Assembly: GCF_004010195.1 (NCBI RefSeq)
Contig: NC_057758.1
Coordinates: 3,990,809-4,050,194, forward strand
DNA: 59,386 bases
Reading direction: 5' to 3'
DNA from: Chiloscyllium plagiosum
Taxonomy: Eukaryota
Position 1 is the stretch's first letter. Each line of letters begins with the position of its first letter. A program made the translations under genes and the position numbers. The notes under the pieces are model-generated. The model had not been told where the DNA came from. It made no database searches and worked only from the letters and a program-made list of their open reading frames with translations. This document shows positions 3,721-59,386 of the stretch, one piece after another.

Positions 3721-3926
3721 GTCTCCGTGTTTGGGAAAGGAGAAATTCTTGTATTTATGTCACATCTCTAAAGTAATTCAGACATTGTGCTGTGTTATGA
3801 CAGCTCCAATAATTTCAATAGATCTTTAAATACAGTGAGCCATTTGAAATCTGACTCTGTCCACAATAAAACTGATAACTTTACCTCCAGGATGATGCAT
3901 AATTTCTTTGTTTACCTTCTTTACAG

Positions 3927-4834
3927 TTACCAGAGTGACAATCTTCATCCTGCTTCATAAAGATTGTGGATTGTCTCCCTGTGTCAGTCGTTACCTGGGG
4001 GCCATGGCAGTGGCGGATCTACTGGTCATTATCCTCGATCTGATATTGAGACACATTCCCATTATTTATTGGGAAGAGTTTACTTTCCTGTGGTACATAC
4101 ATGTGTGTAATATCCACGCCGTCCTGCTTTATGCAGCAACTGACTGTTCTGTCTGGTTCACAGTCACTTTCACCTTTGATCGGTTTGTAGCCATTTGTTG
4201 CCAGAACCTGAAAAGTAAATACTGCAGTGAGAAAACGGCGGCTGTGGTTCTTGGAACAGTGACTGTGCTGAGCTGCTTAAAGAACATTTTCTGGTATTTC
4301 ATGCTGTTAGGGCTGTATAGTCTGGATAACATTCCCTGGTTTTGTCACACAACAAGCAGTGTTCAATCCTCTCGTGTCTGGACTGCAATCGAGTTCCTCC
4401 ATCACGTCCTAAACCCGGCTCTTCCATTTCTCCTGATTGTACTACTCAATATTTTCACCGTCAGACACATTTTAGTGACCAGCAGAGCCCGCAAGAGACT
4501 GCGTGCTCACACAAATGGGGACGGTCAGTGTGATACAGAAATGCGAAATCGACAAAGATCCATAATTTTGCTGTTTGTGATCTCGGGCAATTTCATCTTG
4601 TTATGGTCAATGCTGATGGTGTACTCTATATGGAACCGGATGTGGTATTTCGGGTATAGGTCTGTGTATGTCTATCCATTTGTGCAGGAATTAGGCTTCA
4701 TGCTGCAGCTCCTCAGTTGCTGCACAAACACAGCGATATATGCTGTGACCCAGAAAAAGTTCAGACATCAGTTGAAGAATGTTCTGAAGTATCCCTTTAT
4801 TCAAATTCATAAATCAATCCAATTCACTCATTAA
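3927..4834 (+). CDS. GPR139/GPR142-like class A orphan GPCR, coding exon 2 (end of TM1 to stop); exon 1 not found in window
   Basis: Open frame with YLGAMAVADLLVI (TM2), C...SVWFTVTFTFDRFVAIC (TM3), TM5 NPALPFLLIVLLN, TM6 FILLW, TM7 LSCCTNTAIY and helix 8 KKFR. A polypyrimidine tract plus CAG acceptor (AG at 3925-3926) gives a phase-1 exon start, matching the two-exon layout of the GPR139 family. The ORF-track TTG start is intronic. Confidence 0.9.
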
Positions 4835-5451
4835 TCAATCAATTCAGGATTTTCATATTTCAATTCAATGTTTCAGCAGTGAAGCAGCTTGTCAATATGG
4901 TAATAGACTGAGGACAGTACTGGTTTGTCCATCCTTATCCTCTGACAGGTGCTTACAGGGGTATATCTCAGCGTTTCTCTCAACTCAGGAGCCAGCCAGG
5001 CAAGGCACTGCTCTCACCTGACTGTATCCATAACTTCCAACTCGTAACTGATTAAAACGTTCATTAAAAAGTGTCAAGCAGTCGAGTTTGTCTTTGCTTT
5101 GAAGACGTTGAGCTGGAGATTCTAACCCATGTCCTTGTCATCCGAGAAGGGGATGGAACCGGATGGGACACCTGAATTCTGTTTAAGTCATTCTGTCCTT
5201 GCTTTCACCTCTGTGTTAAACACCCCGTCCTGTCCTCAGCAGAATTCAACTTTCTCTCTGTTCCCCTCCATTCATATCTTTCTCCCATTCTCACAATTTC
5301 TCTCATTTGTACTCACTGCACCTCCTATTTTGTAATTGCTGTTCACTGTATCTCCCTCCCCCATTCTCATTCACTGTCTCTTCGTCATGCTCTCCCTGTA
5401 CCTCCTCCATTCTCTCTCTTTCAAATCCTGTCCACCTCCAACTCCCTCTTT

Positions 5452-7270
5452 GCTTCTGTTACTGGAGAAACAGGGTGCGATAACGTTTGCAATCTGTTGT
5501 TGGGGAACAGAACGGGATGCACATATAGAGTGTGGGGTTTCGTCAAAATGCAATTGCTCGTGGACTCTGTATGTGAGACCAATGGATGTTACTAGGGCAA
5601 AGGGTGGCCGTCGGGCAATATTCCTGTGAATGCAACACAATGTGTGCAACTACTGTTTGTTGCTGTGGAAACAGAATGGTTATGAGTTCACAGGCAGTTT
5701 CTACTGGGTTAGAGTGAAAATGTTTTCAGAGGCGGTTGCTCGGAGAATAAAGCAGGGACGCGCTCAAATTAGAGATGCTATTGTTATGGGAAAAGTATAT
5801 ACGTGGAACAACTTGGCTTTCGTAGGTGTTCACGGGGATGGTTTTGACAATGGACTATTCCGAGGGAAAATTATGTGGAAGTGGACAAAGCCTGTTTTTA
5901 ATGCAACAGTGTAGTGGTGGTCCAGCAGCCAGTTATTAGGGCAAGAAAAGCAGGTGTAAGATCATGAACCCTTGTCAGAGAAACAGTGTGGTGGTGGGAC
6001 TGACGGATGTTGTCTTTGGAAGAATGTGGGATGGGCCCACATTCCGTTGCCAGGGGAAAATAATTAGTGTTCGACCACTGTCCTTTGCAGGGGGGCAGAG
6101 TGGCTATGTGCACAAAGGCCGTTGAGTAGAGAAAGGGTTGGGGAAAGGTGGACAGACGATTGCTGGGTGAATAGAATGAGGAATGTTTCACAAGCTTTTG
6201 TCATTGGAACAGATTGGGTACAGATTCTCAGGCCATTGCTGACAGGAAAGCAAGGTAGTGAGAGCATAAACTTTGCAAAGGATAACAGAGGGAGCTGATG
6301 ACGTTGGGTGTTCATGTGGGATCAGAGCAGCGGTGCAACAATTGCTAGTTGCTCGGCAGTCGAAATGGATATATGACTACAAAAGGAATAGAAAGGTGAT
6401 GGATCCAGCAGTCTTTGCTAAGAGAGAAGATTAGATGCAGAATCACTGGCTGGTGTTTCAAGAATAGGTTGTGGTTAGGTCCACAGTCCGTTGCTAGGGG
6501 AAGAGTGTGAGCGTGAGAATGCAGTCTGTTGTTGGGGGAGCAGCGTGGAAACATTGCAGCAAGCCTTTGCTCACGGAACAGAGAGGGTGTTTGGCTGGAA
6601 ACCATTGTGAAGCAAAATAGTAGTCGTTTAAGCCTCCTTCTGTGTCCAGGGGAACACTGTGTTAACGGGGTCATACACTGATGCTATGAGAAAGGTTGAT
6701 CAGGTGGTTTCAAAGGTTTTGCTTTGGAATAGTGTGGGTGCATTGCCACAATCCTTTCTGAAGGAGGAAGTGTGGGTGGAATTAGAGCCGACTGTACAGG
6801 CTGTGGTGCTGCAGGCCTCTGCTTGGGAAAAGGTTGAGAATAGGCCACATTGTGTTGCTCGTTAAGCAGAATCGGAAGGTTCTGCAGGTATGTAGCCTGA
6901 GATCCGAGTCGGGTTGGACTACTGACCTTTCATTGGGGAAAGTAAGGGAGTGGAACCATTGATCATTGATAAAGAACAGAGTACAGACGCTACACAAGCC
7001 AATTCTGAGGGAACAGATTTTGTATGTGACTATTATGCTGCTGTGGGAACAGAGGGGTAGGGTTACAGACCGTTGCTAGGGGAACATTGTGTGTGGGACA
7101 ACTGACTGTTGCTATGGCAAGTGAGATGGGGTGGAGTAGGAGGCCATTGATATTGGACGAATTATGTGGTAGGCCAAAGGTCCATTCCCAGAGGATTAGA
7201 GGGGGTAGTGTGACCGGGCGTTGCTCGCAGAACAGAGTAGGCTTTGGGTGAGATAACTCCACAGAGATCA
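5452..7270 (+). repeat. Highly degenerate ~38-bp-period tandem array (~48 units)
   Basis: A core TTG(C) of approximate consensus GCCGTTGCTRGGGGAACAGAGTGGG recurs at 5459, 5497; 5933, 5972, 6010, 6047, 6085, 6122, 6160, 6198, 6236, 6273; 6491, 6529, 6567, 6605; 7073, 7109, 7147, 7221. Spacing within runs is 36-39 bp or multiples of it. Confidence 0.8.
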
Positions 7271-7664
7271 TCATTCCCAGATAGTTGGAAAAAAAAGAAC
7301 CTGACTCAATGCTGCCCTTTGGTGAGAAATTCTACCATCCTCACCTGATATCCACACATGTACAGAAATTCAAGGCGTTGTTCCTTCATTTTAGCCTTGA
7401 TATGTTTCAGAGCATTGTTAGATATTTAGATGATGATTCTAGCCTTACATCCAAAAACAGCAAGAAACTTTTATATCTATCCCAGTGCTTTGTATTATTG
7501 CCACAAAACTTCAATTCTATCCCACCCTTAACTAATGCAACCGTGTGTTTGTGTCATTTTACTGCCTTGCCATTGAATATTTGCTGTCCATCCACCATTC
7601 TTTCTTGTCTTTCCCTGTTTATAAGATGAGTGAGACTAGGTGTATCGGGCTGCTTCAAGTCACG

Positions 7665-8120
7665 TTGGATTGAAGTATGTAGAGAGATTGGTCAGGTGAG
7701 GATTACTTTCACTGGAGTTCAGTGAGTGAGGGAGGGTATCATAAAGTCTGATAATTTTTCTAACATGACTAGACAGGGCAGATGCAGAGAGGCTGTTCCT
7801 AATGGTGCATATGTCCAGATCCAGGGGTTACTGCCTGAAGATTCAAGGTAAGCCATTTATGATCGAGATGAGGAGGCATTTCGTCACCCAAATAATGGTA
7901 GACCTCTGGAATTCATTATCACAGGAAGTATTTGATTCCAGAACACTGTATGTTTTCAAGAGGCCGTTAGATGTAGCACTTAGTGCAAATGGGCTGAAAG
8001 GTTATGTGGAGAAATGAAGGGTCAGGCTATTGAGCTTGAAGATCAGTAACGGACGTGATGAATAACGGTGACAGTCGGAAAGGACGTATTGCCTCCTCCT
8101 TCTCCTATCTTCTATGTTCC
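7665..8120 (+). mobile_element. CR1 LINE 3' fragment
   Basis: SRSRGYCLKIQGKPFMIEMRRHFVTQIMVDLWNSL (CR1 C-terminus) followed by a CCTATCTTCTATGTTCC tail. Confidence 0.85.
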
Positions 8121-8844
8121 TCTGATATCAGTGTTGTGCTAGCATGAAATGGCTGCTGTGACCAAACTTTAAATAGTTGACTGACACCTTCTAATTACTC
8201 GTCCTGGTTTGCAGATGAAAACGTACCTTACTTTTTGTATGTCTCTCAGCCTCCTGCAGATGAATCTGAGCGAGATGTGAGCTGGTTCTTGGTTTAGAAT
8301 TAGAAGGGACAATATAAACTCAATATTAAAGATTTAAACTGGGTGAAGGAACAGAGAAACCTTCAGTTTGGTTGTGTAAATCTGACAGCACACGTGAGAG
8401 GCAAATGTGACAAAAGGTGTATTCTTTCAGACATTCCTGCCTTGCAAAGATATCAGTCTGAAATGGAGAAGCAGGATATGTATAAATCTGTTAGTAATAA
8501 TGTGCAAGTTTCGATTGACGAAGATAAAAATTCCTGAATATATTTGAAGTTACTGTTCTGTGAGAATTAGACGTTTCAGCAGATCCTGCTTACTTCTCAA
8601 GCTTCAAACAGACAGAGCGACATACATGCACAAAACGTGACATTTCAGGCCATCCACTGAATAATAGGTGTAGAACCTTGTTCAGGATCTGTCTCAGAAT
8701 TTACCTCGTCTCCGCCTTGTTTTATGCAGAAAACATAATTTTATCAAAAAAAAACACACATTTGCTTCAAATGTTCTGCATTTAAAAGGAAGCAGAATTG
8801 ACAATAAACGAATGCCTGGAGCATTTGGTCCAATTTAGGGAGTG

Positions 8845-10170
8845 GATGTGACAGTGAGGGATCGAATGTGACTGTGACCGAGCGGCTGTAACTGGGGGAG
8901 TGAGTGAGACATTGTGGGACAGAGTATGACTGTAAGGAACTGAGCAAGAGAGTGCGATATTCAGTGCGAAATAGAGGGAGTGACTGAGACTGAAGGAGTG
9001 AGTGATACTGTGAGCGTGTGAGTGAGAATGACGGAGTGACTGTGAAATTGAGCGAGGATGTCTGACAGTAGAGGAGGCAGAGTGACGGAGTGAGTAAGAC
9101 TGTGTGGGATTCAGCATGGAATGTTGGAATCAGTGAGACTGTGTGAGTGAATAAGGCTGTGAGTGAGTGCAACACCGAAGGAGCCAGTTTGACAGTGGGG
9201 GTTGAGAGCAACAGTGGAGGAGTGAGTGTGACAGTGTGGAAGTGGCGACACTGTGAGTGAATGAGAGTGGGAGCGCCGTAATCAGGGCGACAGCGAGAAA
9301 ATCATTATGACAGTGAGGAAACAGTGAAATTGTGAGGGAGTGAGACTGTGTCAGAATCAGTGAGATAGTGAGGAAGTGACTTTGAGGGAGTCAGTTTGTC
9401 TGCGAGGGAGTCAGTGTTTTGGCGGTAAAGTCAGCGTGACTGTGAGGGAGTCAGTGCATCTGCAGTAATGTCGGTGTGCTTGTGAGAGTGTCAGTGCATT
9501 TCCGAGGAGTCGGTGTTCCTGTGAGGGAATCAGTGTGACAGTGAGGGAGTCAGTGTGATTGTGAGGAATTCAGTGTAACATAACTGTGAGAGATTCAATG
9601 TATCTGACAGGGACTCGGTGCGATTTTGGTGCAGTTAGTGAGTCCACGATAATTTCTGAATGATTGTGAGGGAGTCATACTCTCTACGAGGGAATCATTG
9701 TGTCTGTGGAGGGTATCGGTGTGTCTGTGCGCAATTCAGTTTGTCTCTGAACAAGTAAGAGAGGCACATCGAGAACAAAGTGTGAGGGAGAATGTGTGAG
9801 GGGGAGTGCGTGAGAGAGTGCGAAGGACAGAGTGTGAGACAGAGAGCATGTGACTGTGTGACAAAGTTTGAGGGATAATGTGTGTGGGAGATGCTTTTTT
9901 AGTGTCTCTGTGTGTTAGAGACAGTGTCTATGCGTGTGTTTAAGAATGCTAATACGTATATGTGTGCATGTGTGTGAGAAAGGGAGAAAGAGAGGGAGAG
10001 AGTTTCAGGGAGTTAGTCATTGTTTGTATTTGACTGAGAGAGTGCTATGAGTGCGTGAAATTTATGTGTGAGATTGATTGACTGTGGGTGATGGTGAGTG
10101 TGTAATAATGCACACGTATGAGTGTGACTGCATGCAGACAGTGTCACAGAGAGACTGTGAGAGCGAGACT
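8845..10170 (+). repeat. GA/GT-rich low-complexity tract with an internal 20-bp minisatellite (GAGGGAGTCAGTGTGACTGT) at ~9384-9750
   Basis: Successive GAGGGAGTCAGT units at 20-bp spacing; strong purine and GT strand bias. Confidence 0.85.
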
Positions 10171-11049
10171 CTCTCAAAGGATACTCAATAGTAGGGAAAA
10201 TCTCAACTAGAGAGATTCCTAACAAGACATCCTTATGTACCTGATACAATCTGTTGGCATCTCCACGCTGCCTCCACCGTCATGTAAATTTGTGACAACA
10301 TTAATCCTTCTGGGCAATAATGTTTAATACTTTCATCTTATTTTTAACAGGAACATTCATTTTTTTGTCTATTCTTTGTACAAACATGAATCATATTTCA
10401 CCATGTGATACTTCATCTCCGAATTCTTTCAATATAATTCGTACGACATTTTCTGCAACGTAGACGCTATGATTAGATGTGATGAACTGTACTCTCAGTA
10501 CTTTCATTTTGCAACTTCATAATATCCAGTCAGAAAACTGCCATCTGTCATGGATACCCCTTTATGGGTCTGGAAGTTTGGACTCAGCTTGGAAAGAGAC
10601 TTTTAAACTGTCTCTGAGTTCGTTTGGAAATCGCTGCTCCAGAGGGATGTCTGTTCACACTATTCGATTTGACATTTACGTTTCCAATAAGTGAACATGT
10701 CCACAGCAAGTTACAGCCTCTTCGGTCGCCCTCACACTTTATTTTCCAACCAACATGAGTCTTGTCAGTGAATGGAGGAGCATTGCACTTGTTCCATTTG
10801 GCAAAATAATTGACAGTGTTTGTAAATGGCTGTGACTTTAACAGAGACGCTTCAAGAAACCCCCAGGAGTACCAGCTCACAAAGCTGGAAATAAACCACT
10901 GAGTTGGTAGAAATGCAGAGGCATGGGACTGAGGGCAATTTGGCAGTTTGGATTGGAAACTGGATTTTGAAAAAACGCAGCAAGTTGTAGTTGATGTGAA
11001 ATATTCAGCTTGAAGTCTATGTATTAGTGGGGTATGACATAGAATTATT

Positions 11050-12000
11050 TTGGGACCAATGTTGTTTGTTATTTTTTATAAATGACTTCGACGCAGGCAT
11101 AGGTGGATGGGTTAGTTAGTTTGCGGATAACACTAAAGGCTGTGGAATAGTGGACAGTGTGGAAGAATTTTGCAGGTTGCAGGGGGACTTGGATAAACTG
11201 CAGAACTGGGCTGAGAATTGGCAAATAAAGTTCAATGCGGCTAAATGTGAGGTAAATCACTTGGGATGAATAACAAGAAGACAGAAAACTAGGTCAATGG
11301 AAAGATTCTTGGTAATGTGGATGTGCAAAGGGATCTTGGAGTCCATGTGCAAAGATCCCTGAAATTTGCCACCCAGATTTACCGTGCTATCAAGAATACA
11401 TACGGTGTGTCAGGCTTTATTGGTAGAGGGATTGAGATGCGGAGCTGTAATGTCATGCTGAAACTATACAAAACGCTCGTGCGGATTCACTTGGAACGTT
11501 GTGTTCTGTTCTGGTCGCCCCATTCCAGGAAGGATGTGAAAGCATTGGAAAAGGTGCTAAGGAGATTTTAGAGGATGTTACCTACTCTAGGGGCAGGTCT
11601 TATGAGAAATGTCTGACAGACTTGCATCTTTTCTCATTGGAAAGAGAAGGGTAAGAGGGGATTTGATAGAGAGATACAAGATCATCAGTGGATTAGATAG
11701 GGTCGACCGTGAAAGTTTTTTTTCTAGTCAAATGATGTCAGCTTGCAATTTGAGGGGTTATAGATTTCAGACAGATGTCAGAGGCAGGTTCTGTACTCAG
11801 AGTGGTCAGGCCGTGGAATACCCTGCCTGCCAATGTAGTCCACTCAGCCAAATTATGAAGTTTTAAACAGGCCTTAGATAAGCACATGGATAATGATGGG
11901 GTATGATAGGGGGGATGAGCATAGATTACATCACATGTCGGTGTAACAGTGAGGGCCGAAGGCCCTGTTCTGCGCTCTATTGTTCTATGTTCTATGTTTT
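11050..12000 (+). mobile_element. CR1 LINE 3' fragment
   Basis: LGPMLF.....NDFDAGIGGWVS*FADNTK, QRDLGVHV, LYKTLVRIHLE; ends in a TTCTATG repeat tail. Confidence 0.9.
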
Positions 12001-12684
12001 ATGTAAACCTGTTTGCTGTCCACCAGCAAATCCTAAACGCTCCAGGTCACAGCAAGCTAGTGCATGCTTAATGTGGTGCATGGTCTTCCTTAATATTACC
12101 ATGTTATAGTTTACCGCAAGCGGAATGTCAGACATGGGGACAGTGTGAGACACAGAGTGGAGCACAGAAACAAGCATAGAGAGAGAGAAGGACTGGGGGG
12201 TAGAAGCAACTAGCAAGGATTGAAAGGGAGGAATGTGAGGACTCACAGAGCTGAATAGCTCCCTGAATAAAATCACAACATTAAATTTTAAGTACAACGT
12301 AATTTTCCAAACTTTTAAACTTGGCAAATGTAAGTATCACTGAAAAATTCTCAGGCCTTTACAGATTTTTAAAAATCACTGATGCGACGAAAGTCCAGGT
12401 CTCTCTGTCCATACTCCAGTTTTAACAATTTATCATTCAGTTTATTCTGCCACTTCTCAGACCTTCATGGGTAACGAATCACTGCAACTTTCTCAGTGTT
12501 TTAGTGAGCTGCGGTGTATCTGTCCATTTCATGCCTGCCAATATCTCCTTGAATCTACTCACATGCCATTAATCCTGCTACCCTTGTGAATCAGTCCAGG
12601 GAAAGAGGGCAGCTGCAGCAAGCAATTCCCAAGGCAAATGACACATGAACATTTACTGCAGTCGGATTGGAGCTCAGGAGTAGG

Positions 12685-14262
12685 GAATGTTTTGAGGAAG
12701 TGAAAAGGTTGATTGATGAGGGAAGGGCTGTCGATGTCATATACGTGGACCTCAGTAAGTCATTTGAGAAGGGTCGCCATGTTAGATTAATGGAGGAAGT
12801 TGAAGTCGCATGGGTTCCAGGGCGTACTGGCTGTATATGTAGAGATCTGGCTGAGCAACAGGATACAGAAAATAGTGGAAGGTAGATTCTCAAAATGGAG
12901 AACTGTGAACAGTGATGTTTCACAGGGATCCGTGTTGGGACTACTATTCTCTGTGGTACAGAAAAGTGATCTGGATGAAGTTATAGGTGATATGATTAGC
13001 AAGTTTGCAGCTGGCACTACTTCAGTGGAGTGGAAGATCGTGAAGGGGACTGTCAGGGATCGTAACAGAATACAGACAGAGGGAAGAGTTCGGTGGAGAT
13101 ATAGCAGATGGAGTTCAATCCGGGCAACTGTGACGTGATGTAATTTGAAAGATCCAATTCAAGAATGATTAATACGTCAAATGGAAACTTCCTAGTGAAA
13201 ATTGATGCACCGAAATATCTGGGTGTTTAGGTACTTTATACCCTGAAGGTGGTAATGCTGATTGATAGAGGACAGCACAGTGGCTCAGTGCTTCGCACTG
13301 CAGTCTCACAGCGCTCGGGACCTGGGTTCTACTCCAGCCTCAGACAACTGTCTGTGGGGGGTTTGCACATTCTCCCCTTGTCTGCATGGGTTTGCTGCGG
13401 GTGTTCCGGTTTCCTCCTACAATCTAAATGAGTGTAGGTTAGGTAAATTGACAATGATAAATTGCCCAAAGTCCTCATGTAGGTTACGTGTATTAGACAG
13501 CTTAAGGGTGGAGGAGAAGAATGGCGGAATGTGTGTGGATGTGTTACTCTTCGAAGGATCAGTGTGGACTTCTTGGGCCAAAGGACTTGTTTATTCACTG
13601 CAGGGATTCTATGATTCTCGAGTGGTCAAGGAAGCAAATGGCATGCTCCCCTTCAGCGGATGGTGTATTGAGTGCAAGTGTTGGGAGGTCATGCTAAAGT
13701 TGTACAAGACATTCGTGGTTCCACATTTAGAATACCGCATAAATTTCTGATCACAACATTTCCAAAAGGATGTGGTTAGGTTTGGAGAGGGTGCAGAGGA
13801 GGTTCACTATTATGTTGCCTTGGATGAAGAGCGCGAGAGATGAAGAGATGTTGAGTAGATTAGGACTATTTTGATGAGCGAGATGGAGAGGGACCTGATT
13901 GATGTCTGAAAAAACATGTGCGCTATCGACACAGTTGCTAGCAAGATTTTAACCAGTGTGCTGGAGTCAATTACAAGGGTTACGATTTTAAAATGAGGGG
14001 GGAAAGCGCAAGGGAGATACACATGTAATTTTCTTTACACAGAGCGTGGTGGCTGGATGGAGCAAGTTGCTAGTGGAGGTGGTAGAGGTAGGCACGATAA
14101 CATTGTTTAATGAGTATATCGACAGATACATGAATGGGGAGGGAGCAAAGGGATACAGATCCTAGGAAAATAGGTGACAGGTTTAAATAGAGGATCTGGA
14201 TTGGTTTTGGCTTGGGGGGGGGGGCAAAGGGTGTGTTTCTCTGGAATAATTTTATTTGTTCT
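12685..14262 (+). mobile_element. CR1 LINE fragment interrupted by a SINE
   Basis: FEEV...IDEGRAVDVIYVDLSKSFEK, VSQGSVLGLLFS, ISKFAAGT, then LYKTFVVPHLEY after the SINE, and a CR1-type 3' end. Confidence 0.9.
13270..13618 (+). mobile_element. HE1-like V-SINE nested in CR1
   Basis: A-box-like GTGGCTCAGTG, B-box-like GGTTCTACTCC, V-domain and ATTCTATGATTCT tail. The CR1 sequence resumes on both sides; the mirrored copy has a TAGAG duplication at 49481-49485 and 49833-49837. Confidence 0.85.
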
Positions 14263-14299
14263 TTGCTATACTACAGTGATGCAGCAGCCTTGGTGAGTC

Positions 14300-14825
14300 C
14301 AGACAATGATGATTCTGTGCAGTTTGTGTATCGCGATCTAACGGATGGTGTGCTTGCTGCGGAGTGAGTACAACGGAAATTCATTGGGCTGATTGGAGGC
14401 TGTTAGAACTGTCACATTAAAAGAGGCTGGTTCATCTGGGGATGCATTGAGAAAAATTGGAGGCCGGGGTGCTGATTAAAACGTCTCCAATTCTAACGGC
14501 TGAAGAACAGACTTGTTGTAGCGAAGATGTTGCCCGTGTAGGGCAGTCACAAACCAAAGATCACGGACTCAGGATTTGGGTTGTGGCATTTTGAACGGAG
14601 GTGAAGAGAACTTTCATCACTCTGACGTTGGTCAACCTGTGGAATTCTTAACCACTGAAGGCTGTGACCTCAAGTCACTGCATATAATCAGGAAAGAGAA
14701 AGATAATTGTTTTAGAGATAAAAGGCATCACGGGTATTGAGAGAAAATGGGAATATGATATCGGGGCAGAGGATCAGCCATAAGCAGAATGAATGGGTAT
14801 ATTCCCGTTCCTGCTTTCTCTGCTC
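14300..14825 (+). mobile_element. Old CR1 LINE 3' fragment
   Basis: Decayed ..VQRKFIGLI.., SQTKDHGLRI and EVKRTFITLTLVNLWNS segments; CR1 3'UTR GAGGATCAGCCAT. Confidence 0.7.
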
Positions 14826-48289: not shown

Positions 48290-50402
48290 AGAGAAAGCAG
48301 GAACAGGAATATTCCGTAGCCCTACTCCCCATTCATTATGTTTGTGACTGATCCTCTGCCCGGATACCATATTCCCATTTTCTCTCAATACCCCGTGATG
48401 CCTTTTATCTCTAAAACAATTATCTTTCTCTTTCCGGAATATATGCAGTGGCTTGAGTGCACAGCCTTCAGAGGTTAAGAATTCCACAGATTGACCAACG
48501 TCTCAGTGATGAAAGTTATCTTCACCTCCGTTCAAAATGCCACAGCCCAAGTCCTGAGTCCGTGATCTTTGGTTTGTGACTGCCCTACACGGGTAACATC
48601 CTCCCTGCAACAAGTCTGTTCTTGAGCCGTTAGAATTGGAGACGTTTTAATCAGCATCCCGGCCTCCAATTCTTCTCAATGCATCCTCAGATGAACCAGC
48701 CTCTTTTAATGTGACAGTTCTAACAGCCTCGAATCAGTCCAATCAATTTCCGTTGTACTCACTCCGCAGTAAGCACGCCGTCCGTTAGCTAGCGATACAC
48801 AAACTGCACAGAACCATCATTGTCTGGACTCACCAAGGCTGCTGCATCACTGTAGTATAGCAAAGAACAAATAAAATTATTCAGGAGAAACACACCCTAC
48901 GGCCCCCCAAGCCAAAACCAATCCAGATCCTCTATTTAAACCTGTCACCTATTTTCCTAGGATCTGTATCCCTTTGCTCCCTACCCATTCATGTATCTGT
49001 CTATATACTCATTAAACAATGCTATCGTGCCTACCTCTACCACCTCCACAGCAACTTGCTCCATCCAGCCACCACGCTCTGTGTAAAGAAAATTACATGT
49101 GCATCTCCCTTGTGCTTTCCCCCTCATTTTAAAATCGTAACCCTTGTAATTGACACCAGCACACTGGTTAAAATCTTGCTACCAACTGTATCGATAGCGC
49201 ACATGTTTTTTTCAGACATAATTTCTCTCATCAAAATAGTCCTAATCTACTCAACATCTCTTCATCACTCGCGCTCTTCATCCAAGGCAACATCATAGTG
49301 AACCTCCTCTGCACCCTCTCCAAACTAACACATCCTTTTGGAAATGTTGTGATCAGAAATTTATGCGGTATTCTAAATGTGGAACCATGAATACCTTCTA
49401 CAACTTTAGCATGACCTCCCAACACTTGCACTCAATACACCATCCGATGAAGGGGAGCATTCCATTTGCTTCCTTGACCACTCTAGAACCATAGAATCCC
49501 GACAGTGAAGAAACAAGTCCTTTGGCCCAAGAAGTACACACTGAACATTCGAAGAGTAACACATCCACATACATTCCGCCATTCTTCTCCTCCACCCTTA
49601 AGCTGTCTTATACACGTAACCTACATGAGGACTTTGGGCAATTTATCATTGTCAATTTATCTAACCTACACTTATTTAGATTGTGGGAGGAAACCGGAGC
49701 ACCCGCAGCAAACCCATGCAGACAAGGGGAGATTGTGCAAACCCCCCACAGACAGTTGTCTGATGCTGGAGTAGAACCCAGGTCCCTCGTGCTGTGAGAC
49801 TGCAGTGCGAAGCACTGAGCCACTGTGCTGTCCTCTATCGATCTGCATTACCACCTTCAGGGTATAAAGTATCTTAACATCCAGATATTTCGGTGCATCA
49901 ATTTTCACTCGGACTTTTCCTTTTGACGTATTATTCAATCTTGAATTGGATCTTTCAAATTACATCCCGTCCAGTTGCCCGGATCTGCTCTATCTCCAAC
50001 GAAATATTCCCTCTGTCTGTATTCTGTTACGTTCCCTGACAGTCCCCTTTACGATCTTCCACTCCACTGAAGTAGTGCCAGCTGCAAACTTGCTAATCAT
50101 ATCGCCTATAACTTCCTCCAGATCACTTTTCTGTACCACAGAGAACAGTAGTCCCAACACGGATCCCTGTGAAACATCACTGTTCACAGTTCTCCATTTT
50201 GCGAATCTACCTTCCACTATTTTCTGTATCCTGTTGCTCAGCCAGATCTCTATATATCCAGCCAGCACGCCCTGGAACCCATGTGACTTCAACTTCCTCC
50301 ATTAATCTAACATGGCGACCCTTCTCAAACGACTTACTGAGGTCCACGGATATGACATCGACAGCCCTTCCCTCATCAATCAACCTTTTCACTTCCTCAA
50401 AA
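48290..50402 (-). mobile_element. CR1 fragments with a nested V-SINE (49486-49832); mirror of 12685-14825
   Basis: ORFs 49990..50292, 50207..50455 and 49608..49823 match their left-arm counterparts. Confidence 0.85.
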
Positions 50403-51087
50403 TATTTCCCTACTCCTGAGCTCCAATCCGACTGCAGTAAATGTCCATGTATCATTTGCCTTGGGGATTGCTTGCTGCAGCTGACCTGTTTCCCTGGACT
50501 GGTTCACAGGGGTAGCAAGATTAATGGCATGTGAGTAGATTCAAGGAGACCTTGGCAGGCATGAAATGGACAGATACATCGCAGCTCACTAAAACACTGA
50601 GAAAGGTGCAGTGATTCGTTACTCATGAAGGTCTGAGAAGCGGCAGAATAAACTGAATGATAAATTGTTAAAACTGGAGTATGGACAGAGAGACCTGGAC
50701 TTTCGTCGTATTAGTGATTTTTAAAAATCTGTAAAGTCCTGAGAATTTTTCTTTGATACTTACATTTGCCAAGTTTAAAAGTTTGGAAAATTACGTTGTA
50801 TTTAAAATTTAATGTTGTGATGTTATTCAGGGAGGTATTCAGTTGTGTGAGTACTCACATTCCCCCCTTTCAATCCTTGCTAGTTGCTTCTACCACACAG
50901 TCCTTCTCTCTCTTTGTGCTTGATTCTGTGCTCCACTCTGTGTCTCACACTGTCCCCATGTCTGACATTCCACTTACCGTAAACTATAACATTGTAATAT
51001 GAAGGAAGACCATGCACACATTAAGCATGCACGAGTTTGCCGTGTCTTGGAGCGTTTAGGATTTGCTGGTGGACAGCAAACAGGGTT

Positions 51088-52045
51088 ACATAAAACATAG
51101 AACATAGAACAACACAGCGCAGAACAAGGCCTTCGGCCCTCAATGTTACACCGACATGTGATGTAATCTAAGCTCATCTCCCTTATCATACCCCATTATC
51201 ATCCATTTGCTTATCTAAGGCCTGTTTAAAACTTCATCATTTGGCTGAGTAAACTACATTGGCAGGCATGGTATTCCACGGCCTGACCACTCTGAGCACA
51301 GAACCTGACTCTGACATCTGTCTGAAATCTATAACCCCTTAAATTGCAAGCTGACATCATTTGACTAGAAAAAAATACTTTCACGGTCTACCCTATCTAA
51401 TCCACTGTAGATCTTGTATCTCTCTATCAAATCCACTCTTACCCTTCTTTTTTCCAATCAGGAGAGATGCAAGTCTCTCAGACATTTCTCATTAGACATA
51501 CCCCCAGACTAGGTAACATCCTGGTAAATCTCCTCAGTACCTTTTCCAATGCTTCCAAATCCTTCCTGAAATGGGGCGACCAGAACCGCACACAACCTTC
51601 CAAGTGAAGCCGCACGAGCGTTTTGTATAGTTTCAGCATGACATTACAGCTCCGCATCTCAATCCCTCTACCAATAAAGTTTGACACACCGTTTGTGTTC
51701 TTGATAGCACGTTAAATCTGGGTGGCAAATTTGAGGGATCTTTGTACATGGACTCCAAGATCCCTTTGCACATCCACATTAACAAGAATCTTTCCATTGA
51801 ACAGTTTTATGCCTTCTTGTTATTCATCCCAAGTGATTCACCTCACATTTAGCCGCATTGAACTTTATTTGCCAATTCTCAGCCCAGTTCTGCAATTTAT
51901 CCAAGTCCCCCTGCAACCTGCAAAATTCTTCCACACTGTCCACTACTGCACAGCCTTTAGTGTTATCTGCAAACTTACTAACCCATCCACCTATGCCTGC
52001 GTCTAAGTCCTTTATAAAAAATAACAAACAACATTGGTCCTAAAA
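51088..52045 (-). mobile_element. CR1 3' fragment (mirror of 11050-12000)
   Basis: FIKDLDAGIGGWVSKFADNTK (ORF 51824..52027); CATAGAA tail at ~51095. Confidence 0.9.
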
Positions 52046-53463
52046 CAACCCTATGTCATACCCCACGAATACATAGACTTCAGGCTGAATATTTCACATC
52101 AACTACAACTTGCTGCGCTTTTTCAAAATCCAGTTTCCAATCCAAACTGCGAATTGCCCTCAGTCCCATGCCTCTGCATTTCCTCCAACTCAATGGTTTA
52201 TTTCCAGCTTTGTGAGCTGGTACTCATGGGGGTTTCTTGAAGCGTCTCTGTTAAACTCACAGCCATTTACAAACACTGTCAATTATTTTGCCAAATGGAA
52301 CAAGTGCAATGCCCCTACGTTCACTGACAAGACCCATGTTGGTTGGAAAAGAAAGTGTGAGGGCGACCGAAGAGGCTGTAACTTGCTGTGGACATGTTCA
52401 CTTATTGGGAACGTAAATGTCAAATCGAATAGTGTGAACAGACATCCCTGTGCAGCAGCGATTTCCAAACGAACTCAGAGACAGATTAAAAGTCTCTTTC
52501 CATGCTGAGTCCAAAATTCCAGACACATAAAGGAGTATCCATGACAGATGGCAGTTTTCTGACTGGATATTATGAAGTTGCAAAATGAAAGTACTGAGAG
52601 TACAATTCATCACATCTAATCATAGCGTCTACGTTGCAGAAAATGTCGTACTAATTATATTGAAAGAATTAGGAGATGGAGTATCACATGGTGAAATATG
52701 ATTCATGTTTGTAGAAAGAATAGAGAAAAAAATGAATGTTTCTGTTAAAAATAAGGTGGAAGTATTAAACATTATTGCCCAGAAGGATTAATTTTGTCAC
52801 AAATTTACGTGGAGGTGGAGGCAGCGTGGAGATGCCAACAGATTGTATCAGGTACATAAGGATGTCTTGTTAGGAATCTCTCTAGTTGAGATTTTCCCCA
52901 TTATTGAGTATCCTTTGAGAGAGTCTCGCTCTCCCAGTCTCTCGGTGACACTGTCTGCATGCAGTCACACTCATACGTGTGCATTATTACACACTCACCA
53001 TCACCCACAGTCAATCAATCTCACACATAATTTCACGCACTCAGAGCACTCTCTCAGTCAAATACAAACAATGACTAACTCCCTTAAACTCTCTCCCTCT
53101 CTTTCTCCCTTTCTCACACACATGCACACATTTACGTACTAGCATTCTTAAACACACACATAGACACTGTCTCTAACACACAGAGACACTAAAAAAGCAT
53201 CTCCCACACACATTATCCCTCAAACTTTGTCACACAGTCACATGCNNNNNNNNNNNNNNNNNNNNNNNNNNNNNNNNNNNNNNNNNNNNNNNNNNNNNNN
53301 NNNNNNNNNNNNNNNNNNNNNNNNNNNNNNNNNNNNNNNNNNNNNNNNNNNNNNNNNNNNNNNNNNNNNNNNNNNNNNNNNNNNNNNNNNNNNNNNNNNN
53401 NNNNNNNNNNNNNNNNNNNNNNNNNNNNNNNNNNNNNNNNNNNNNNNNNNNNNNNNNNNNNNN

Positions 53464-54267
53464 AGAAAGGTGGCAAATGGTGTTCAATGTAGGTAGGTGT
53501 GAGGTGATTCACTTTGGTAAGAGTAACAAGAAGATGGGGTATTGGGCTAATGGTCGGATACTTGGTAGTGTGGATGAGCAGAGGGATCTTGGTGTCCATG
53601 TACACAGATCTCTGAAAGTTGCCACCCAGGTAAATAGTGCGCTGAGGAAGGTATATGGCGTACTGGCTTTTATTGGTAGAGGAATTGAGTTCGGGAGTCC
53701 TGAGGTCATGATGCAGTTGTATAAGACTCTGGTGCGGCCGCATCTGGAATATTGTGTGCAGTTTTGGTTGCCATACTATAGGAAGGATGTGGAGGCACTG
53801 GAACGGGTGCAGAGGAGGTTTACCAGGATGTTGCCTGGTATGGAAGGAAGATCGTATGAGGAAAGACTGAGACACTTGGGGCTGTTTTCATTAGAGAAAA
53901 GAAGGTTTAGGGGTGACTTGATTGAGGTGTACAAGATGATTAGGGGGTTAGATAGGGTTGACAGTGTGAACCTTTTCCCGCGTATGGAGTCGGGTATTAC
54001 AAGGGGGCATAGCTTTATATTAAGGGGGGTTGATATAGGACTGAAGTTAGGGGTAGGTTCTTCACTCAGCGAGTCGTTAGTTCATGGAATGCCCTGCCAG
54101 TAGCAGTGGTGGACTTTCCCTCTTTATGGGCATTTAAGCGGGCATTGGATAGGTATATGGAGGATAGTGGGTTAGTATAGGTTAGGTGGGCTTGGATCGG
54201 CGCAACATCGAGGGCCAAAGGGCCTGTACTGCGCTGTATTCTTCTATGTTCTTCTATGTTCTATGTT
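53464..54267 (+). mobile_element. Young CR1 LINE 3' end, right arm only (5' part hidden in gap 53246-53463)
   Basis: About 185 uninterrupted codons (EQRDLGVHVH, LYKTLVRPHLEYCVQFW, LERVQRRFTRMLPG, RGDLIEVYK, TRGHS) and an intact (TTCTATG)n tail; absent at the corresponding left position ~9028. Confidence 0.95.
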
Positions 54268-55090
54268 CTCACTCACACTCTCACAGTATCACTCACTCCT
54301 TAAGTCTCAGTCACTCCCTCCATTTCGCACTGAATATCGCACTCTCTAGCTCAGTTCCTTTCAGTCATACTCTATCCCTCAATGTCTCACTGTCACGTCC
54401 TCTCCCTAAATTGGACCGAAAACTCCAGGCATTCATTAATTGGCAATTCTGCTTCCTTTTAAATGCAGAACATTTGAAGCAAATGTGTTTTTTTTTTGAT
54501 AAAATTGTGTTTTCTGCATAAAACAAGGCGGAGACGAGGTAAATTCTGAGACAGATCCTGAACAAGGTCCACACCTATTATTCAGTGGATGACCTCAAAT
54601 GTCACGTTTTGTACATGTATGTCGCTCTGTCTGTTTGAAGCTTGAGAAGTAAGCAGGATCTGCTGAAACGTCTAATTCTCTCAGAGCAGTAACTTCAAAC
54701 ATATTCAGGAATGTTTATCTTCGTCAATCGAAACTTCCACATTATTTCGAACAGAGTTCTACAGATCCTGCTTCTCCATTTCAGACTGATATCTTTGCAA
54801 GGCAGGAATTTCTGAATGAAAACACCTTTTGTCACATTTGCCTCTCACGTGTGCTGTCAGATTTACACAACCAAACTGAAGGCTTCCCTGTTCCTTCACC
54901 CAGTTTAAATCTTTAATATTGAGTTTATATTGTCCCTTCTAATTCTAAAATCCAGAACCAGTTCACATCGCGCTTAGATTCATCTGTAGGAGGCTGAGAG
55001 ACATAGGACGAGTAATTAGAAGGTGTCAGTCAACTATTTAAAGATTGGTCACAGCAGCCATTTTTATGGTAGCACAACACTGATATCAGA

Positions 55091-55605
55091 GGAAAATAGA
55101 AGATAGGAGCAGGCGGAGGCAATACGGCCTTTCCAACTGTCACCGTTATTCATCACGTCCGTGACTGATCTTCCAGCTCAATAGCCTGACCCTTCATTTC
55201 TACCCATAACCTTTCATCCCAAATGCTTCCAGCTCAATAGCCTGACGCTCAATAGCCTGACACAACCTTTCATCCCAAATGCACTAAGTTCTACATCTAA
55301 CCGTCCCTTGAAAACATACACTGTTCTGGCATCAAATACTTCCTGTGATAATGAATTCCAGAGGCCCATCATTATTTGGGTGACGAAATGCCTCCTCATC
55401 TCGATCGTAAATGTCTCATCTCGAATCCTCAGGCAGTAAACCCTGGATCTGGACATATGCACCATGAGGAACAGCCTCCCTGCATCTGCCCTGTCTAGTC
55501 ATGTTAGAAACTTTATAAGACTTTATGATACCCTCCCTCACTCACTGAACCCCAGTGAAAGTAATCCTAACCTGACCAATCTCTCTACATACTTCATTCC
55601 AACGT
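55091..55605 (-). mobile_element. CR1 3' fragment (mirror of 7665-8120) with small local duplications at ~55170-55285
   Basis: ORF 55214..55465; GCTCAATAGCCTGAC occurs three times. Confidence 0.85.
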
Positions 55606-56049
55606 GCCTTGAAACAGCCCGATAAACCGAGTCTCACTCATCTTATAAACAGGGAAAGGCAAGAAAGAATGTGGACTTGGGAGTCCTTGCTCAAGTCAGT
55701 TCAATGTTGATCAACGAGAATGGTGGATGGATCGCAAATATTCAATGGCAAGGCAGTAAAATAACACAAACCCAAGGTTGCATTATTTAAGGATGGGATA
55801 GAATTGAAGTTTTGAGGCAGTAATGCAAAGCACTGGGATAGATAAAAAAAAGTTTCTTGCTGTTTTTGGATGTAAGGCTAGAATCATCATCTAAATATCT
55901 AACAATGCTTGAAACATATCAAGGCTAAAATGAAGGAACAACGCCTTGAATTTCTGTACATGTGTGGATATCAGTGAGGATGGTAGAATTTCTCACCAAA
56001 GGGCAGCATTGAGTCAGGTTCTTTTTTTTTTCCAACTATCTGGGAATGA

Positions 56050-57835
56050 TGGTCTTTGTGGAGTTATCTCACCCAAAGCCTACTCTGTTCTGCGAGCAAT
56101 GCCCGGTCACACTACCCCTCCAATCCTCTGGGAATGGACCTTTGGCCTACCACATAACTAGTCCGATATCAATGGCCTCCTACTCCACCCCATCTCACTT
56201 GCCATAGCAACAGTCAGTTGTCCCACACACATTGTTCCCCTAGCAACGGTCTGTAACCACACCCCTCTGTTCCCACAGCAGCATAACAGTCACACACAAA
56301 ATCTGTTCCCTCAAAATTGGCCTGTGTCGCATCTGTCCTCTGTTCCTTATCAATGATCAATGGTTCCACTCCCTTACTTTCCCCAAGGAAAGGTCAGTAG
56401 TCCAACGCGACTCGGTTCTCAGGATATATACCTGCAGACCCTTCCGATTCTACTTAATGAGCAACAGACTGTGGCCTATTCTCAACCTTTCCCAAGCAGA
56501 GGCCTGAGCACCACAGCCTGGACAGTCGGCTCTGATTCCACCCACACTTCCTCCTTCAGAAATGATTGTGGCAATGCACCCACACTATTCCAAAGCAAAA
56601 CCTTTGAAACCACCTGACCCACCTTTCTCATAGCATCAGTGTGTGACCCCGCAAACACAGTGTTCCCCTGGACACAGAAGGAGGCTTAAACGACTACCGT
56701 TTCGCTTAACAATGGTTTCCAGCCAAACACTCTCTCTGTTCCCTGAGCAAAGGCTTGCTGCAATGTTTCCACGCTGCTCCCCCAGCAACAGACTGCATTT
56801 TCACGCGCACTCTCTTCCCCTAGCAACGGACTGTGGACCTACCCACAACCTGTTCTTGAAACACCAGTCAGTGATTCTGCATCTAATCTTCTCTCTTAGC
56901 AAAGACTGCTGGATCCATCACCTTTCTATTCCTTTTGTGGTCATATATCCATTTCGACTGCCGAGCAACTAGCAATTGTTGCACCGCTACTCTGATCCCA
57001 CATGAACACCCAACGTCATCAACTCCCTCTGTTATCCTTTGCAATGTTTATGCTCTCACTACCTTGCTTTCCTGTCAGCAATGGCCTGAGAATCTGTACC
57101 TGATCTGTTCCCTTAACAAAGGCCTGTGAACCATTCCTCATTCTATTCACCCACCTTTTCCCAACCCTTTCTCCAAGCAACGGTCTTTGTGCACATAGCC
57201 ACTCTGCCCCCCAGCAAAAGACAGTGGTCGAACACCAATTATTTTCCCCTGGCAACGGAATGTAGGCCCATCCCACACTCTTCCAAAGACAACATCCGTC
57301 AGCCCCACCACCATACTGTTTCTCTGACAAGGATACATGATCCTACACCTGCTTTTCTTTCCCTAATAACTGGCTGCTGGACCACCACTGCACTGTTGCA
57401 TTAAAAACAGGCTTTGTCCACTTCCACATAATTTTCCCACGGAACAGTTCATTGTCAAAACCATCCCCGTGAACACCTTCGAAAACCAAGTTGTTCCACA
57501 TATATACTTTTCCCATAACAATTGCATCCCTAATTTGAGCACGTTCCTGCTGTATTCGCCGAGCAACCGCATCTTCACTCTAACCCAGTAGAAACTGGGT
57601 GAACTCATAACCATTCTGTTTCCTCAGCCACAAAAAGTAGTTGCACACAATGTGTTCCATTCACAGGAATATTGTCCGACGCTCACCTTTTGACCAAGTA
57701 ACAGCCATTGCTCTCACAAACAGAGTCCACGAGCAATTGCATTTTGCCGAAACCCCACACTCTATATGTGCATCCCGTTCTGTTCCCCAAACAACAGATT
57801 GCAAAAGTAAACACACTCTGTTTCTCCAGCAGCAG
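56050..57835 (-). repeat. Mirror of the degenerate ~38-bp tandem array
   Basis: Reverse complement of 5452-7270, e.g. TTCCCCTAGCAACGG at ~56235 and ~56815. Confidence 0.8.
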
Positions 57836-58421
57836 AAGCTAAGAGGGAGTTGGAGGTACAGGGAGAGCAAGACGAAGAAACAGTGAATGAGAATGGGGGA
57901 GGGAGATACAGTGAACAGCAATTACAAAATAGGAGGTGCAGTGAGTACAAATGAGAGAAATTGTGAGAATGGGAGAAAGATATGAATGGAGGGGAACAGA
58001 GAGAAAGTTGAATTCTGCTGAGGCCAGGACGGGGTGTTTAACACAGAGGTGAAAGCAAGGACAGAATGACTTAAACAGAATTCAGGTGTCCCATCCGGTT
58101 CCATCCCCTTCTCGGATGACAAGGATATCGGTGAGAATCTCCAGCTCAGCTTCTTCAAAGCAAAGACAAACTCTACTGCTTGACACTTTTTAATGAACGT
58201 TTTAATCAGTTACGCATTGAAGTTATGGATACAGTCAGGTGAGAGCATTGCCTTGCCTGGCTGGCTCCTGAGTTGAGAGAAACGCTGAGATATACCCCTA
58301 TAATCACCTGTCAGAGGATAAGGATGGACAAACCAGTACCGTCCTCAGTCTATTACCATATTGACAAGCTGCTTCACTGCCGAAACATTGAATTGAAATA
58401 TGAAAATCCTGAATTGATTGA

Positions 58422-59329
58422 TTAATGAGTGAATTGGATTGATTTATGAATTTGAAGAAAGGGATACATCAGCACATTCTTCAACTGCTGTCTGAACTTT
58501 TTCTGGGTCACAGCATATATCGCTGTGTTTGTGCAGCAACTGAGGAGCTGCAGCATGAAGCCTAATTCCTGCACAAATGGATAGACAAACACAGACCTAT
58601 ACCCTAAATACCACATCCGGTTCCATATAGAATACACCATCAGCATTGACCATAACAAGATGAAATTGCCCGAGATCACAAACAGCAAAATTATGGATCT
58701 TTGTCGATTTCGCATTTCTGTGTCACACTGACCGTCCCCATTTGTGTGAGCACGCAGTCTCTTGCGGGCTCTGCTGGTCACTAAAATGTGTCTGACGGTG
58801 AAAATATTGAGTAGTATAATCAGGAGAAATGGAAGAGCCGGGTTTAGGACGTGATGGAGGAACTCGATTGCAGTCCAGACATGAGAGGATTGAACACTGC
58901 TTGTTATGTGACAAAACCAGGGGATGTTATCCAGATTATACGTCCCTGCCAGCATGAAATACCAGAAAATGTTCTTTAAGCAGCTCAGCACAGTCACTGT
59001 TCCAAGAACCACAGCCGCTGTTTTCTCACTGCAGTATTTACTTTTCAGGTTCTGGCAACAAATGGATACAAACCGATCAAAGGTGAAAGTGACTGTGAAC
59101 CAGACAGAACAGTCAGTTGCTGCATAAAGCAGGACGGCGTGGATATTACACACATGTATGTACCACAGGAAAGTAAACTCTTCCCAATAAACAATGGGAA
59201 TGTGTCTCAATATCAGATCGAGGATAATGACCAGTAGATCCGCCACTGCCATGGCCCCCAGGTAACGACTGACACAGGGAGACAATCCACAATCTTTATG
59301 AAGCAGGATGAAGATTGTCACTCTGGTAA
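58422..59329 (-). CDS. GPR139/GPR142-like class A GPCR, coding exon 2 (paralog of 3927-4834)
   Basis: Same length with no stops or frameshifts and 13 amino-acid differences; CAG acceptor retained at 59330-59332. Confidence 0.9.
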
Positions 59330-59386
59330 CTGTAAGGAAGGGAAACAAAGAAAATATGCATCATCCTGGAGGTAAAGTTGTCAGTT

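What the first reader, a model, noticed from the sequence alone, without database searches (positions are those of the whole stretch)
3870..59386. Inverted duplication of more than 22 kb placing two intact GPR139-like receptors tail to tail
Seen: 3870-25975 mirrors 33695-59386 with a ~7.7 kb spacer. Non-coding identity is roughly 90-95% by eye, with arm-specific insertions and deletions, yet both GPCR exons are full-length with intact acceptors while the other shared content is decayed. The inner end falls in a Gypsy integrase. Inference: a snapshot of birth-and-death expansion of the elasmobranch GPR139-like family by segmental duplication, with selection preserving only the receptor and possible arm-to-arm gene conversion.
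Basis: partly seen in the sequence, partly recalled or inferred. Interest (0 to 1): 0.7.

Follow-up and report, generated by a model that had tools for sequence, protein, structure and literature searches.

The report
Shark receptor duplicate, orientation unproven
Two old, 94%-identical copies of a 22-kb shark DNA segment each carry the main exon of a receptor from a very large shark gene family, but their mirror-image arrangement rests on an assembly join, so this is probably an ordinary gene duplicate rather than a proven palindrome.

Summary
The match is real: 3870-25975 and 33695-59386 align in reverse over 20,066 columns with 5.6% substitutions, 71 indel events and arm-specific insertions. 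The architecture is not shown. The right arm begins at the first base after a gap of exactly 500 N, the default Hi-C join of 3D-DNA and SALSA2; the other six gaps are irregular. It runs to the window's last base. So orientation, the 7.7-kb spacer and both ends come from the assembly, and divergent haplotigs are not excluded (about 30%).

The 'intact receptors' are exon 2 only. No exon 1 was found in the window, and both copies have Thr-Arg where 93 of 94 homologues have the TM1 Asn. The exon plus 540 bp downstream is the most conserved tract, both between arms (2.2-2.6% vs 5.9%) and against a related shark (1.5% vs 3.9%), and amino-acid changes fall on variable columns. That favours purifying selection over arm-to-arm conversion, although dN/dS between copies is 0.86. 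The proteins belong to the shark 'GPR139-like' expansion and are not GPR139 orthologues.

Verdict: an ordinary multigene-family duplicate; the palindrome is unproven.

The parts
3870..25975 (+). Left copy of the duplicated segment (22.1 kb, inside one gap-free contig 3615-26630)
   Evidence: blastn self-comparison
33695..59386 (-). Right copy (25.7 kb including 1,395 N in three irregular gaps). Starts at the first base after the 500-N gap and ends at the window's last base; apart from internal arm-specific segments it lies wholly within the extent of the left copy
33195..33694 (.). Gap of exactly 500 N, probably a fixed-size Hi-C join; it sets the orientation and distance of the right copy
   Evidence: other gaps are 148, 144, 915, 737, 440, 218; PMC9292758 passage on the 500-N default
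25976..33694 (.). Apparent spacer, 7,719 bases with three gaps (1,559 N); holds the rest of a decayed Gypsy-type element, a local tandem duplication and repeat fragments
3927..4834 (+). Exon 2 of a shark GPR139-like class A GPCR (second half of TM1 to the stop), stop-free, phase-1 acceptor AG at 3925-3926; TM1 reads V-T-R-V-T-I instead of the family's V-N-x-x-T-I
58422..59329 (-). Exon 2 of the second copy; 20 substitutions and 13 amino-acid differences from the left copy, 5 of them in the TM4-TM5 loop; same T-R in TM1
4835..5377 (+). Conserved downstream tract (probable 3' UTR and beyond); ATTAAA at 5051 and 5063 in both copies; 14/542 differences between arms vs 5.9% further on
   Evidence: four RNA reads of a close homologue leave the reference at 5039 with an AATAAA
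3361..3720 (+). 106-bp overlap across the 148-N gap (3361-3466 vs 3615-3720) with 7 mismatches; contig 1-3466 probably belongs to the other copy, so the duplication extends outward beyond 3870
   Evidence: the 148-N gap is within 1 base of the 149-base distance to the right copy's outer end (arithmetic)
19909..20127 (.). Left-only 219-bp hairpin insertion with a 14-bp target-site duplication (inserted after the two copies split)
53464..54265 (+). Right-only young LINE 3' fragment (CR1-like by eye; no Pfam hit)
43652..45091 (.). 1.44-kb segment present only in the right copy, probably deleted from the left (it continues the LINE fragment that the left copy truncates)

Best explanation
Two paralogous copies of a segment of more than 22 kb arose once by segmental duplication in a carpet shark (probably a bamboo shark) and have since diverged by about 5.6%, each gaining its own insertions and deletions. 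Each carries exon 2 and the 3' end of a member of the very large shark GPR139-like receptor family, and purifying selection has slowed change in that exon and its 3' flank. The short-read assembly built the two copies as separate scaffolds, and a Hi-C step glued them with a fixed 500-N gap. The inverted tail-to-tail layout and the 7.7-kb spacer are therefore the scaffolder's choice, not an observation. SHOWN: homology, divergence, arm-specific events, gap sizes, exon conservation, family. INFERRED: Hi-C origin of the join, paralogy rather than allelism, and function of the receptors.
For: Divergence is even: 21 non-overlapping 906-column windows outside the exon hold 35-70 substitutions, as expected from one origin with little later exchange. 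5.6% plus kilobases of arm-specific elements is far above the genome-wide heterozygosity of 0.1-1.6% quoted for vertebrate assemblies (PMC8081667, passages). The family is large: 1,483 of 3,067 candidates at E<=0.001, all 120 listed from sharks. The join is exactly 500 N, the default of 3D-DNA and SALSA2, and Hi-C orientation of short pieces is described as unreliable (PMC9292758, passages). The exon has 20 substitutions, against a minimum of 30 in 18,196 overlapping windows of equal size. The same tract is conserved against organism A, and amino-acid differences sit at variable columns.
Against: The right copy has no unique flank at either end, and the scaffold already appears to mix the two copies at 3361-3720; both are typical of haplotigs. 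Related organism A shows one sequence version over most of the flank laid (for example a single 911-bp contig carrying all the depth at 6315-7034 in X2). It is closer to the left arm (2.8-3.4%) than the arms are to each other (4.6-5.2% in the same intervals), and 23 of the 31 listed non-exon letters equal the right arm (only 40 of 369 rows were shown). A simple clock does not explain this. dN/dS between the copies is 0.86, not different from 1 (Fisher p=0.79). Both copies lack the TM1 Asn, and exon 1 was not found.
Confidence: 0.62

Rival explanations
1. Uncollapsed haplotypes: the two arms are strongly diverged alleles of one locus, assembled separately and placed next to each other by Hi-C (false heterotype duplication).
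For: 500-N join; right copy wholly contained in the left scaffold's extent; the upstream contig appears to come from the other copy; one version only in organism A. PMC8081667 (passages) describes such duplications in regions of raised haplotype divergence, and PMC9292758 warns about haplotigs in Hi-C scaffolding.
Against: 5.6% even divergence over 20 kb with several element insertions or deletions and no near-identical stretch longer than 144 bases is extreme for alleles. Both ends of the right copy fall in high-copy sequence (receptor exon edge, Gypsy), which would break a paralogue's scaffold too.
Confidence: 0.3
2. One reading: a true local inverted duplication with convergent receptors and a spacer of some kilobases, the inner breakpoint lying in or just beyond the integrase region (a special case of the best explanation).
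For: A Hi-C join implies physical proximity (or allelism), and the four right-arm contigs are consistently ordered and oriented against the left arm.
Against: No sequence crosses the join and the gap length is arbitrary. Orientation of a 26-kb piece by Hi-C is weak, more so when reads cross-map to a 94% copy (inference).
Confidence: 0.2
3. The two exons are recently dead or crippled: exon 1 is lost or far away, and the shared Asn-to-Thr and hydrophobic-to-Arg changes in TM1 predate the duplication and impair folding.
For: 0 of 94 homologues have Thr and 0 of 97 have Arg at these columns. No exon 1 within 3.9 kb upstream. dN/dS is 0.86. No annotated protein of 166-529 residues is closer than 82-85%. 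No RNA read of 74 laid was 99% alike (different organism).
Against: No indel or stop in either exon, where about 3.4 indel events would be expected at the flank rate. dN is far below the flank rate and changes avoid conserved columns. Departures from conserved columns (6 and 8 of 161) are within the family range (median 4). Intron 1 may simply be longer than 3.9 kb.
Confidence: 0.3
4. Arm-to-arm gene conversion homogenised a 1.5-kb tract (3927-5377) after the duplication.
For: dS 2.5% vs flank 5.8% (5 of 201 sites, p=0.03). The non-coding 3' tract is also low (14/542, p=0.0002 without allowing for overdispersion). 8 of the 25 identical runs of 70 or more bases lie in 3921-5377.
Against: The tract is reduced to a similar degree between the left arm and organism A (1.5% vs 3.9%), which points to constraint or a low local mutation rate. 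The test for a left/right mosaic in organism A was not significant (p=0.06, 0.16, 0.33).
Confidence: 0.2

Closest known systems
Shark 'probable G-protein coupled receptor 139' expansion (NCBI/UniRef automatic names in Rhincodon, Stegostoma, Chiloscyllium, Heterodontus, Heptranchias, Scyliorhinus)
   Same: 82% identity over the whole exon, up to 85% over 90% of it. Falls in a 45-row carpet-shark clade (SH-aLRT 99, quick tree). The exon starts at the same P-V|N position where many partial homologue models start.
   Different: Both copies have T-R for N-x in TM1; no close annotated orthologue was returned; exon 1 is not in the window.
Human GPR139 (PDB 7VUG, 9M42)
   Same: Best solved-structure hit of the family profile (E 6e-11); class A fold.
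   Different: The window protein alone does not hit it at E<=10; 21% identity in the fold match, rank 26. The name is a distant best hit, not orthology, and the ligand cannot be carried over.
Birth-and-death expansion of chemoreceptor-type GPCR families by segmental duplication (recalled: olfactory, vomeronasal and TAAR clusters)
   Same: A receptor exon under constraint inside a duplicated, repeat-rich block; differences between copies gather in an extracellular loop.
   Different: Unrelated receptor clade; a sensory role is not shown here.
False heterotype duplications and Hi-C misorientation (PMC8081667, PMC9292758; passages read)
   Same: The duplicate is separated by an assembly gap of the default Hi-C size and is contained within the other scaffold's extent.
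   Different: Divergence (5.6% plus element insertions) is well above usual heterozygosity; half depth was not testable.
Ampliconic palindromes with arm-to-arm conversion, as on mammalian Y chromosomes (recalled)
   Same: Inverted arms with a spacer, as drawn in the assembly.
   Different: Arms are 94.4% identical rather than over 99%; orientation is unverified; the conversion signal is explained as well by constraint.

Membership tests
Class A (rhodopsin-type) GPCR | Pfam 7tm_1 above the curated cut-off | tested here: met
   57.4 and 59.1 bits vs 30.5
Class A (rhodopsin-type) GPCR | Seven-helix fold | tested here: met
   Low-confidence model (pLDDT 60, pTM 0.52) matches class A peptide and amine receptors, TM-score about 0.6-0.7; only the second half of TM1 is in the model
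Class A (rhodopsin-type) GPCR | Conserved TM1 Asn (position 1.50; numbering recalled) | tested here: not met
   Thr in both copies; Asn in 93 of 94 homologues and in human GPR139 in the profile alignment
Class A (rhodopsin-type) GPCR | Complete gene with start codon, N-terminus and first half of TM1 | tested here: inconclusive
GPR139 orthologue | High, direct similarity to human GPR139 | tested here: not met
   No single-sequence hit at E<=10; profile hit only, E 6e-11; 21% identity in the fold alignment
GPR139 orthologue | Activation by L-Trp and L-Phe (as noted in earlier finding e1-7813824; also recalled) | not testable with these tools
   Needs an assay
Shark GPR139-like multigene family | Sequence clade membership | tested here: met
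   82-85% identity to whale-shark and zebra-shark members; supported clade in a quick tree of 62 of the 122 proteins then held
Segmental duplication | Over 1 kb and over 90% identical (definition recalled) | tested here: met
   20,066 columns, 94.4% identical
Segmental duplication | Both copies on one haploid genome (paralogues, not alleles) | not testable with these tools
   No run of the source individual or an identical genome was listed; best share 0.45
Palindrome / local inverted duplication | Inverted orientation and adjacency shown by continuous sequence | tested here: inconclusive
   The join is a 500-N gap; no sequence crosses it
Palindrome / local inverted duplication | Near-identical arms kept by conversion | tested here: not met
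   5.6% divergence; longest identical run 144 bases
False heterotype duplication | Assembly gap between the copies, one copy contained in the other's extent | tested here: met
False heterotype duplication | Half read depth on each copy | not testable with these tools
   Source reads not listed; laid depths are of another organism and the tool states they are no copy number

The most novel reading that the evidence does not exclude
A true tail-to-tail palindrome holds two working receptors of an undescribed, very large shark GPCR family. Both tolerate loss of the near-invariant TM1 Asn, and the right copy has quickly changed its second extracellular loop: in 4253-4481 the arms differ at 9 bases, 8 of them non-synonymous, and organism A sides with the left copy at 5-7 or more of them. 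In the related species the copies have been homogenised into one version. That would be a dated example of ligand-site divergence right after duplication in this family.
Probability: 0.12. Interest if true: 0.55.

Novelty: new member of a known kind. Interest (0 to 1): 0.25.

Why it matters
The locus itself is an ordinary duplicate in a large receptor family, and it is a caution: a striking 'palindrome' can be produced by one fixed-size Hi-C join. The wider interest lies in the family. PMC8455134 (passages) speaks of a relative paucity of GPCRs in cartilaginous fishes, yet this exon has 1,483 homologues at E<=0.001, with all 120 listed coming from sharks. My nine searches of the held library on the topic returned no paper describing the expansion.

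Tried and rejected
Own genome: not held, so synteny, further copies and exon 1 outside the window could not be searched.

Exon 1: tblastn with homologue N-termini and an HMM of 78 N-terminal rows found only noise up to 12 bits, including a hit near 44.5 kb that I rejected.

Half-depth test: no listed run is the same genome (best 0.45 of 463 words). No RNA holder was listed; this blank is no evidence either way. Depth ratios in organism A (minor variants at roughly a quarter to a half of local depth) hint at several near-identical copies, but the tool states depth is no copy number, so I do not count it.

Mosaic test for organism A: not significant. Sequencing error as the source of arm divergence: rejected, because arm-specific insertions carry target-site duplications and both frames are open.

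Pfam on 13 decayed repeat fragments: 12 gave nothing; one gave sub-threshold integrase C-terminal and SH3 hits. The careful tree did not finish, so the quick tree was used. Alignment A1 included the right-copy translation with 10 intron-encoded residues at its start. The ESM Atlas look-up of homologue P0022 gave GPR139-like and FMRFamide-receptor-like clusters, a lead only. The profile search of representatives (1,896 hits at E<=0.001) carries no names and added little.

Papers: PMC12294341 and PMC11979771 (passages) say nothing on this family in the passages found. Supplements were not read; the whale-shark paper's gene-family files may list the family under another name. Protein searches outside 166-529 residues were not run. 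Earlier-findings look-ups by place, sequence and relatives gave nothing for this locus.
Full report
OBSERVATION. A self-blastn shows eight collinear reverse-strand matches between 3870-25973 and 59386-33697; direct comparison extends the inner end to 25975/33695. Over 20,066 aligned columns there are 1,125 substitutions, 5.6%, and 71 indel events. Outside the exon, 21 non-overlapping windows of 906 columns hold 35-70 substitutions, so divergence is fairly even. Arm-specific events are real evolutionary changes: a left-only 219-bp hairpin with a 14-bp target-site duplication (19909-20127), a right-only young LINE fragment (53464-54265), 1.44 kb missing from the left (right 43652-45091), and a rearranged Penelope-like region. 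Repeat classes here are by eye; Pfam gave nothing for them.

THE JOIN. The window has seven N gaps: 148, 144, 915, 500, 737, 440 and 218 bases. The 500-N gap (33195-33694) lies exactly at the right arm's inner end: homology begins at the next base. A methods review states that 500 Ns is the default of 3D-DNA and SALSA2, that inversions and misjoins are more frequent in Hi-C scaffolding because read pairs do not give orientation, and that haplotigs confuse it (PMC9292758, passages). I infer that 1-33194 and 33695-59386 were separate draft scaffolds. The right arm's outer end is the window's last base. Neither breakpoint is seen, and the inversion, the 7,719-base spacer (1,559 N) and the 'end in the integrase' are properties of the assembly. 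A second sign of mixed copies: across the 148-N gap, 3361-3466 overlaps 3615-3720 with 7 mismatches in 106, about the arm divergence, and 148 is within one base of the 149 bases separating that contig's end from the position matching the right arm's outer end. Contig 1-3466 is probably the other copy's upstream, so the duplication is longer than reported.

PARALOGUES OR ALLELES. False heterotype duplications are a common assembly error; quoted heterozygosities were 0.1-1.1%, at most 1.6% (PMC8081667, passages). Even 5.6% divergence with kilobases of element differences argues for paralogues; containment of the right copy and the Hi-C-type join argue for haplotigs. The source reads were not found: the best of 24 listed runs holds 0.45 of the words. 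I laid 4 of the 24 on 3615-9000. Three DNA runs of organism A are a relative, 2.8-3.4% from the left arm where the arms differ by 4.6-5.2%. They show one version over most of the flank, and 23 of the 31 listed non-exon letters equal the right arm (only 40 of 369 rows were shown, chosen by support). Organism A thus sits near the midpoint of the two arms. This fits a duplication at about the time of the species split with faster change in the window's lineage, or a recombined or homogenised copy in A; a test for mosaic tracts was not significant (p=0.06, 0.16, 0.33). I put paralogy at about 65% and alleles at about 30%. The geometry as drawn is about 20%.

THE RECEPTORS. Both frames are stop-free, follow a canonical phase-1 acceptor and pass Pfam 7tm_1. 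The 120 best of 1,483 homologues are all shark proteins named GPR139-, GPR142- or capa-receptor-like; the closest are 82-85% identical, from whale shark and zebra shark. A quick tree of 62 rows (60 homologues picked by hand from the 120 for taxon spread) pairs the two copies (99) inside a carpet-shark clade (99). Human GPR139 is the best solved-structure hit of the family profile (E 6e-11) but is not hit by the protein alone and is 21% identical in the fold match: the label is a distant best hit. Homologues carry a 50-90-residue N-terminal part ending in YYPILAIVGVP; it is not in the window by tblastn or by a profile (best 12 bits vs 64-73 for controls). 'Intact receptor' is therefore shown only for exon 2. 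Both copies read V-T-R where 93 of 94 homologues have Asn and 0 of 97 have Arg. That Asn is, from recall, the most conserved TM1 residue of class A GPCRs. Overall departures from conserved columns (6 and 8 of 161) are within the family's range (median 4).

SELECTION OR CONVERSION. Between copies there are 5 synonymous and 15 non-synonymous changes: dS 0.025, dN 0.022, ratio 0.86. Both are below the flank (p=0.03 and 5e-6). The exon's 20 substitutions are fewer than in any of 18,196 overlapping flank windows (minimum 30), and 4835-5377 is equally low (14/542). The 13 amino-acid differences fall on variable columns (p=0.002; p=0.04 without the three clustered ones), five of them in the TM4-TM5 loop of the model. 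The same tract is also conserved between the left arm and organism A (12/811 vs 73/1872, p=0.0007). Conversion between arms would not do that; constraint or a low local mutation rate would. In 4253-4481 the arms differ at 9 bases (8 non-synonymous), while A differs from the left at 2 (X1) or 4 (X2), so most loop changes are on the right copy. In the single-cell RNA run of organism A (about 2 in 100 of it read), 74 reads were laid, none 99% alike and 6 at 95-99%; four leave the reference at 5039 with a polyadenylation signal matching the window's ATTAAA at 5051. Family members are transcribed there; these two copies are not shown to be.

COMPARISON AND NOVELTY. It works like birth-and-death growth of a chemoreceptor-type GPCR family by segmental duplication (recalled). 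It meets the length and identity criteria for a segmental duplication and two of the three signs of a false duplication that I listed; the third, depth, was untestable. It fails the near-identity test for a conversion-maintained palindrome. Nine library searches found no paper on the shark family; the library lacks most subscription journals and I read no supplements.

VERDICT. Real homology, a probable paralogous duplicate with a constrained receptor exon, and an unproven palindrome. New member of a known kind; interest 0.25.

Noticed in passing
window 24300-28640 (+): Decayed Gypsy-type element whose integrase C-terminal fragment (27842-28003; Pfam PF22938 E 2e-5, below cut-off) lies upstream of a reverse-transcriptase fragment (28346-28525; Ty3 RT E 2e-10). 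Integrase-before-RT order is that of Gmr1-like elements (name recalled).
   Followed up: partly
window 26201-27051 and 27053-28249: Local direct duplication of about 1.2 kb inside that element, with a SINE, across the 144-N gap (6/418 and 11/277 substitutions); tandem duplication or a gap-edge artefact.
   Followed up: partly
window 38-413: Exact 187-bp tandem pair; probably an assembly overlap.
   Followed up: no
window 19909-20127; 23385-23570 and 36089-36272: Young left-only hairpin insertion with a 14-bp target-site duplication, and an older related hairpin shared by both arms.
   Followed up: partly
window 20128-20990 and 39978-41454: Inverted pair of Penelope-like fragments (class by eye), differently rearranged in the two arms.
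   Followed up: no
window 3927-4834, runs X1, X2, X7: Summed contig depth over the exon is roughly 100 to over 1,000 times that of the flank, in line with a family of very many copies; the tool states this is no copy number. A homologue with a 375-base skip (4303 to 4679) appears in all three DNA runs.
   Followed up: no
window 3615-9000 vs organism A: The relative is closer to the left arm, and by inference to the right, than the arms are to each other, and it shows one version only; unexplained under a simple clock.
   Followed up: partly
window 8968-9818: Degenerate 18-40-bp GA/GT-rich tandem array; its counterpart in the right arm is interrupted by the LINE insertion and a gap.
   Followed up: no
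window 5000-26000 vs 34000-58000: Persistent positive GC skew over the left arm, mirrored in the right as assembled.
   Followed up: no
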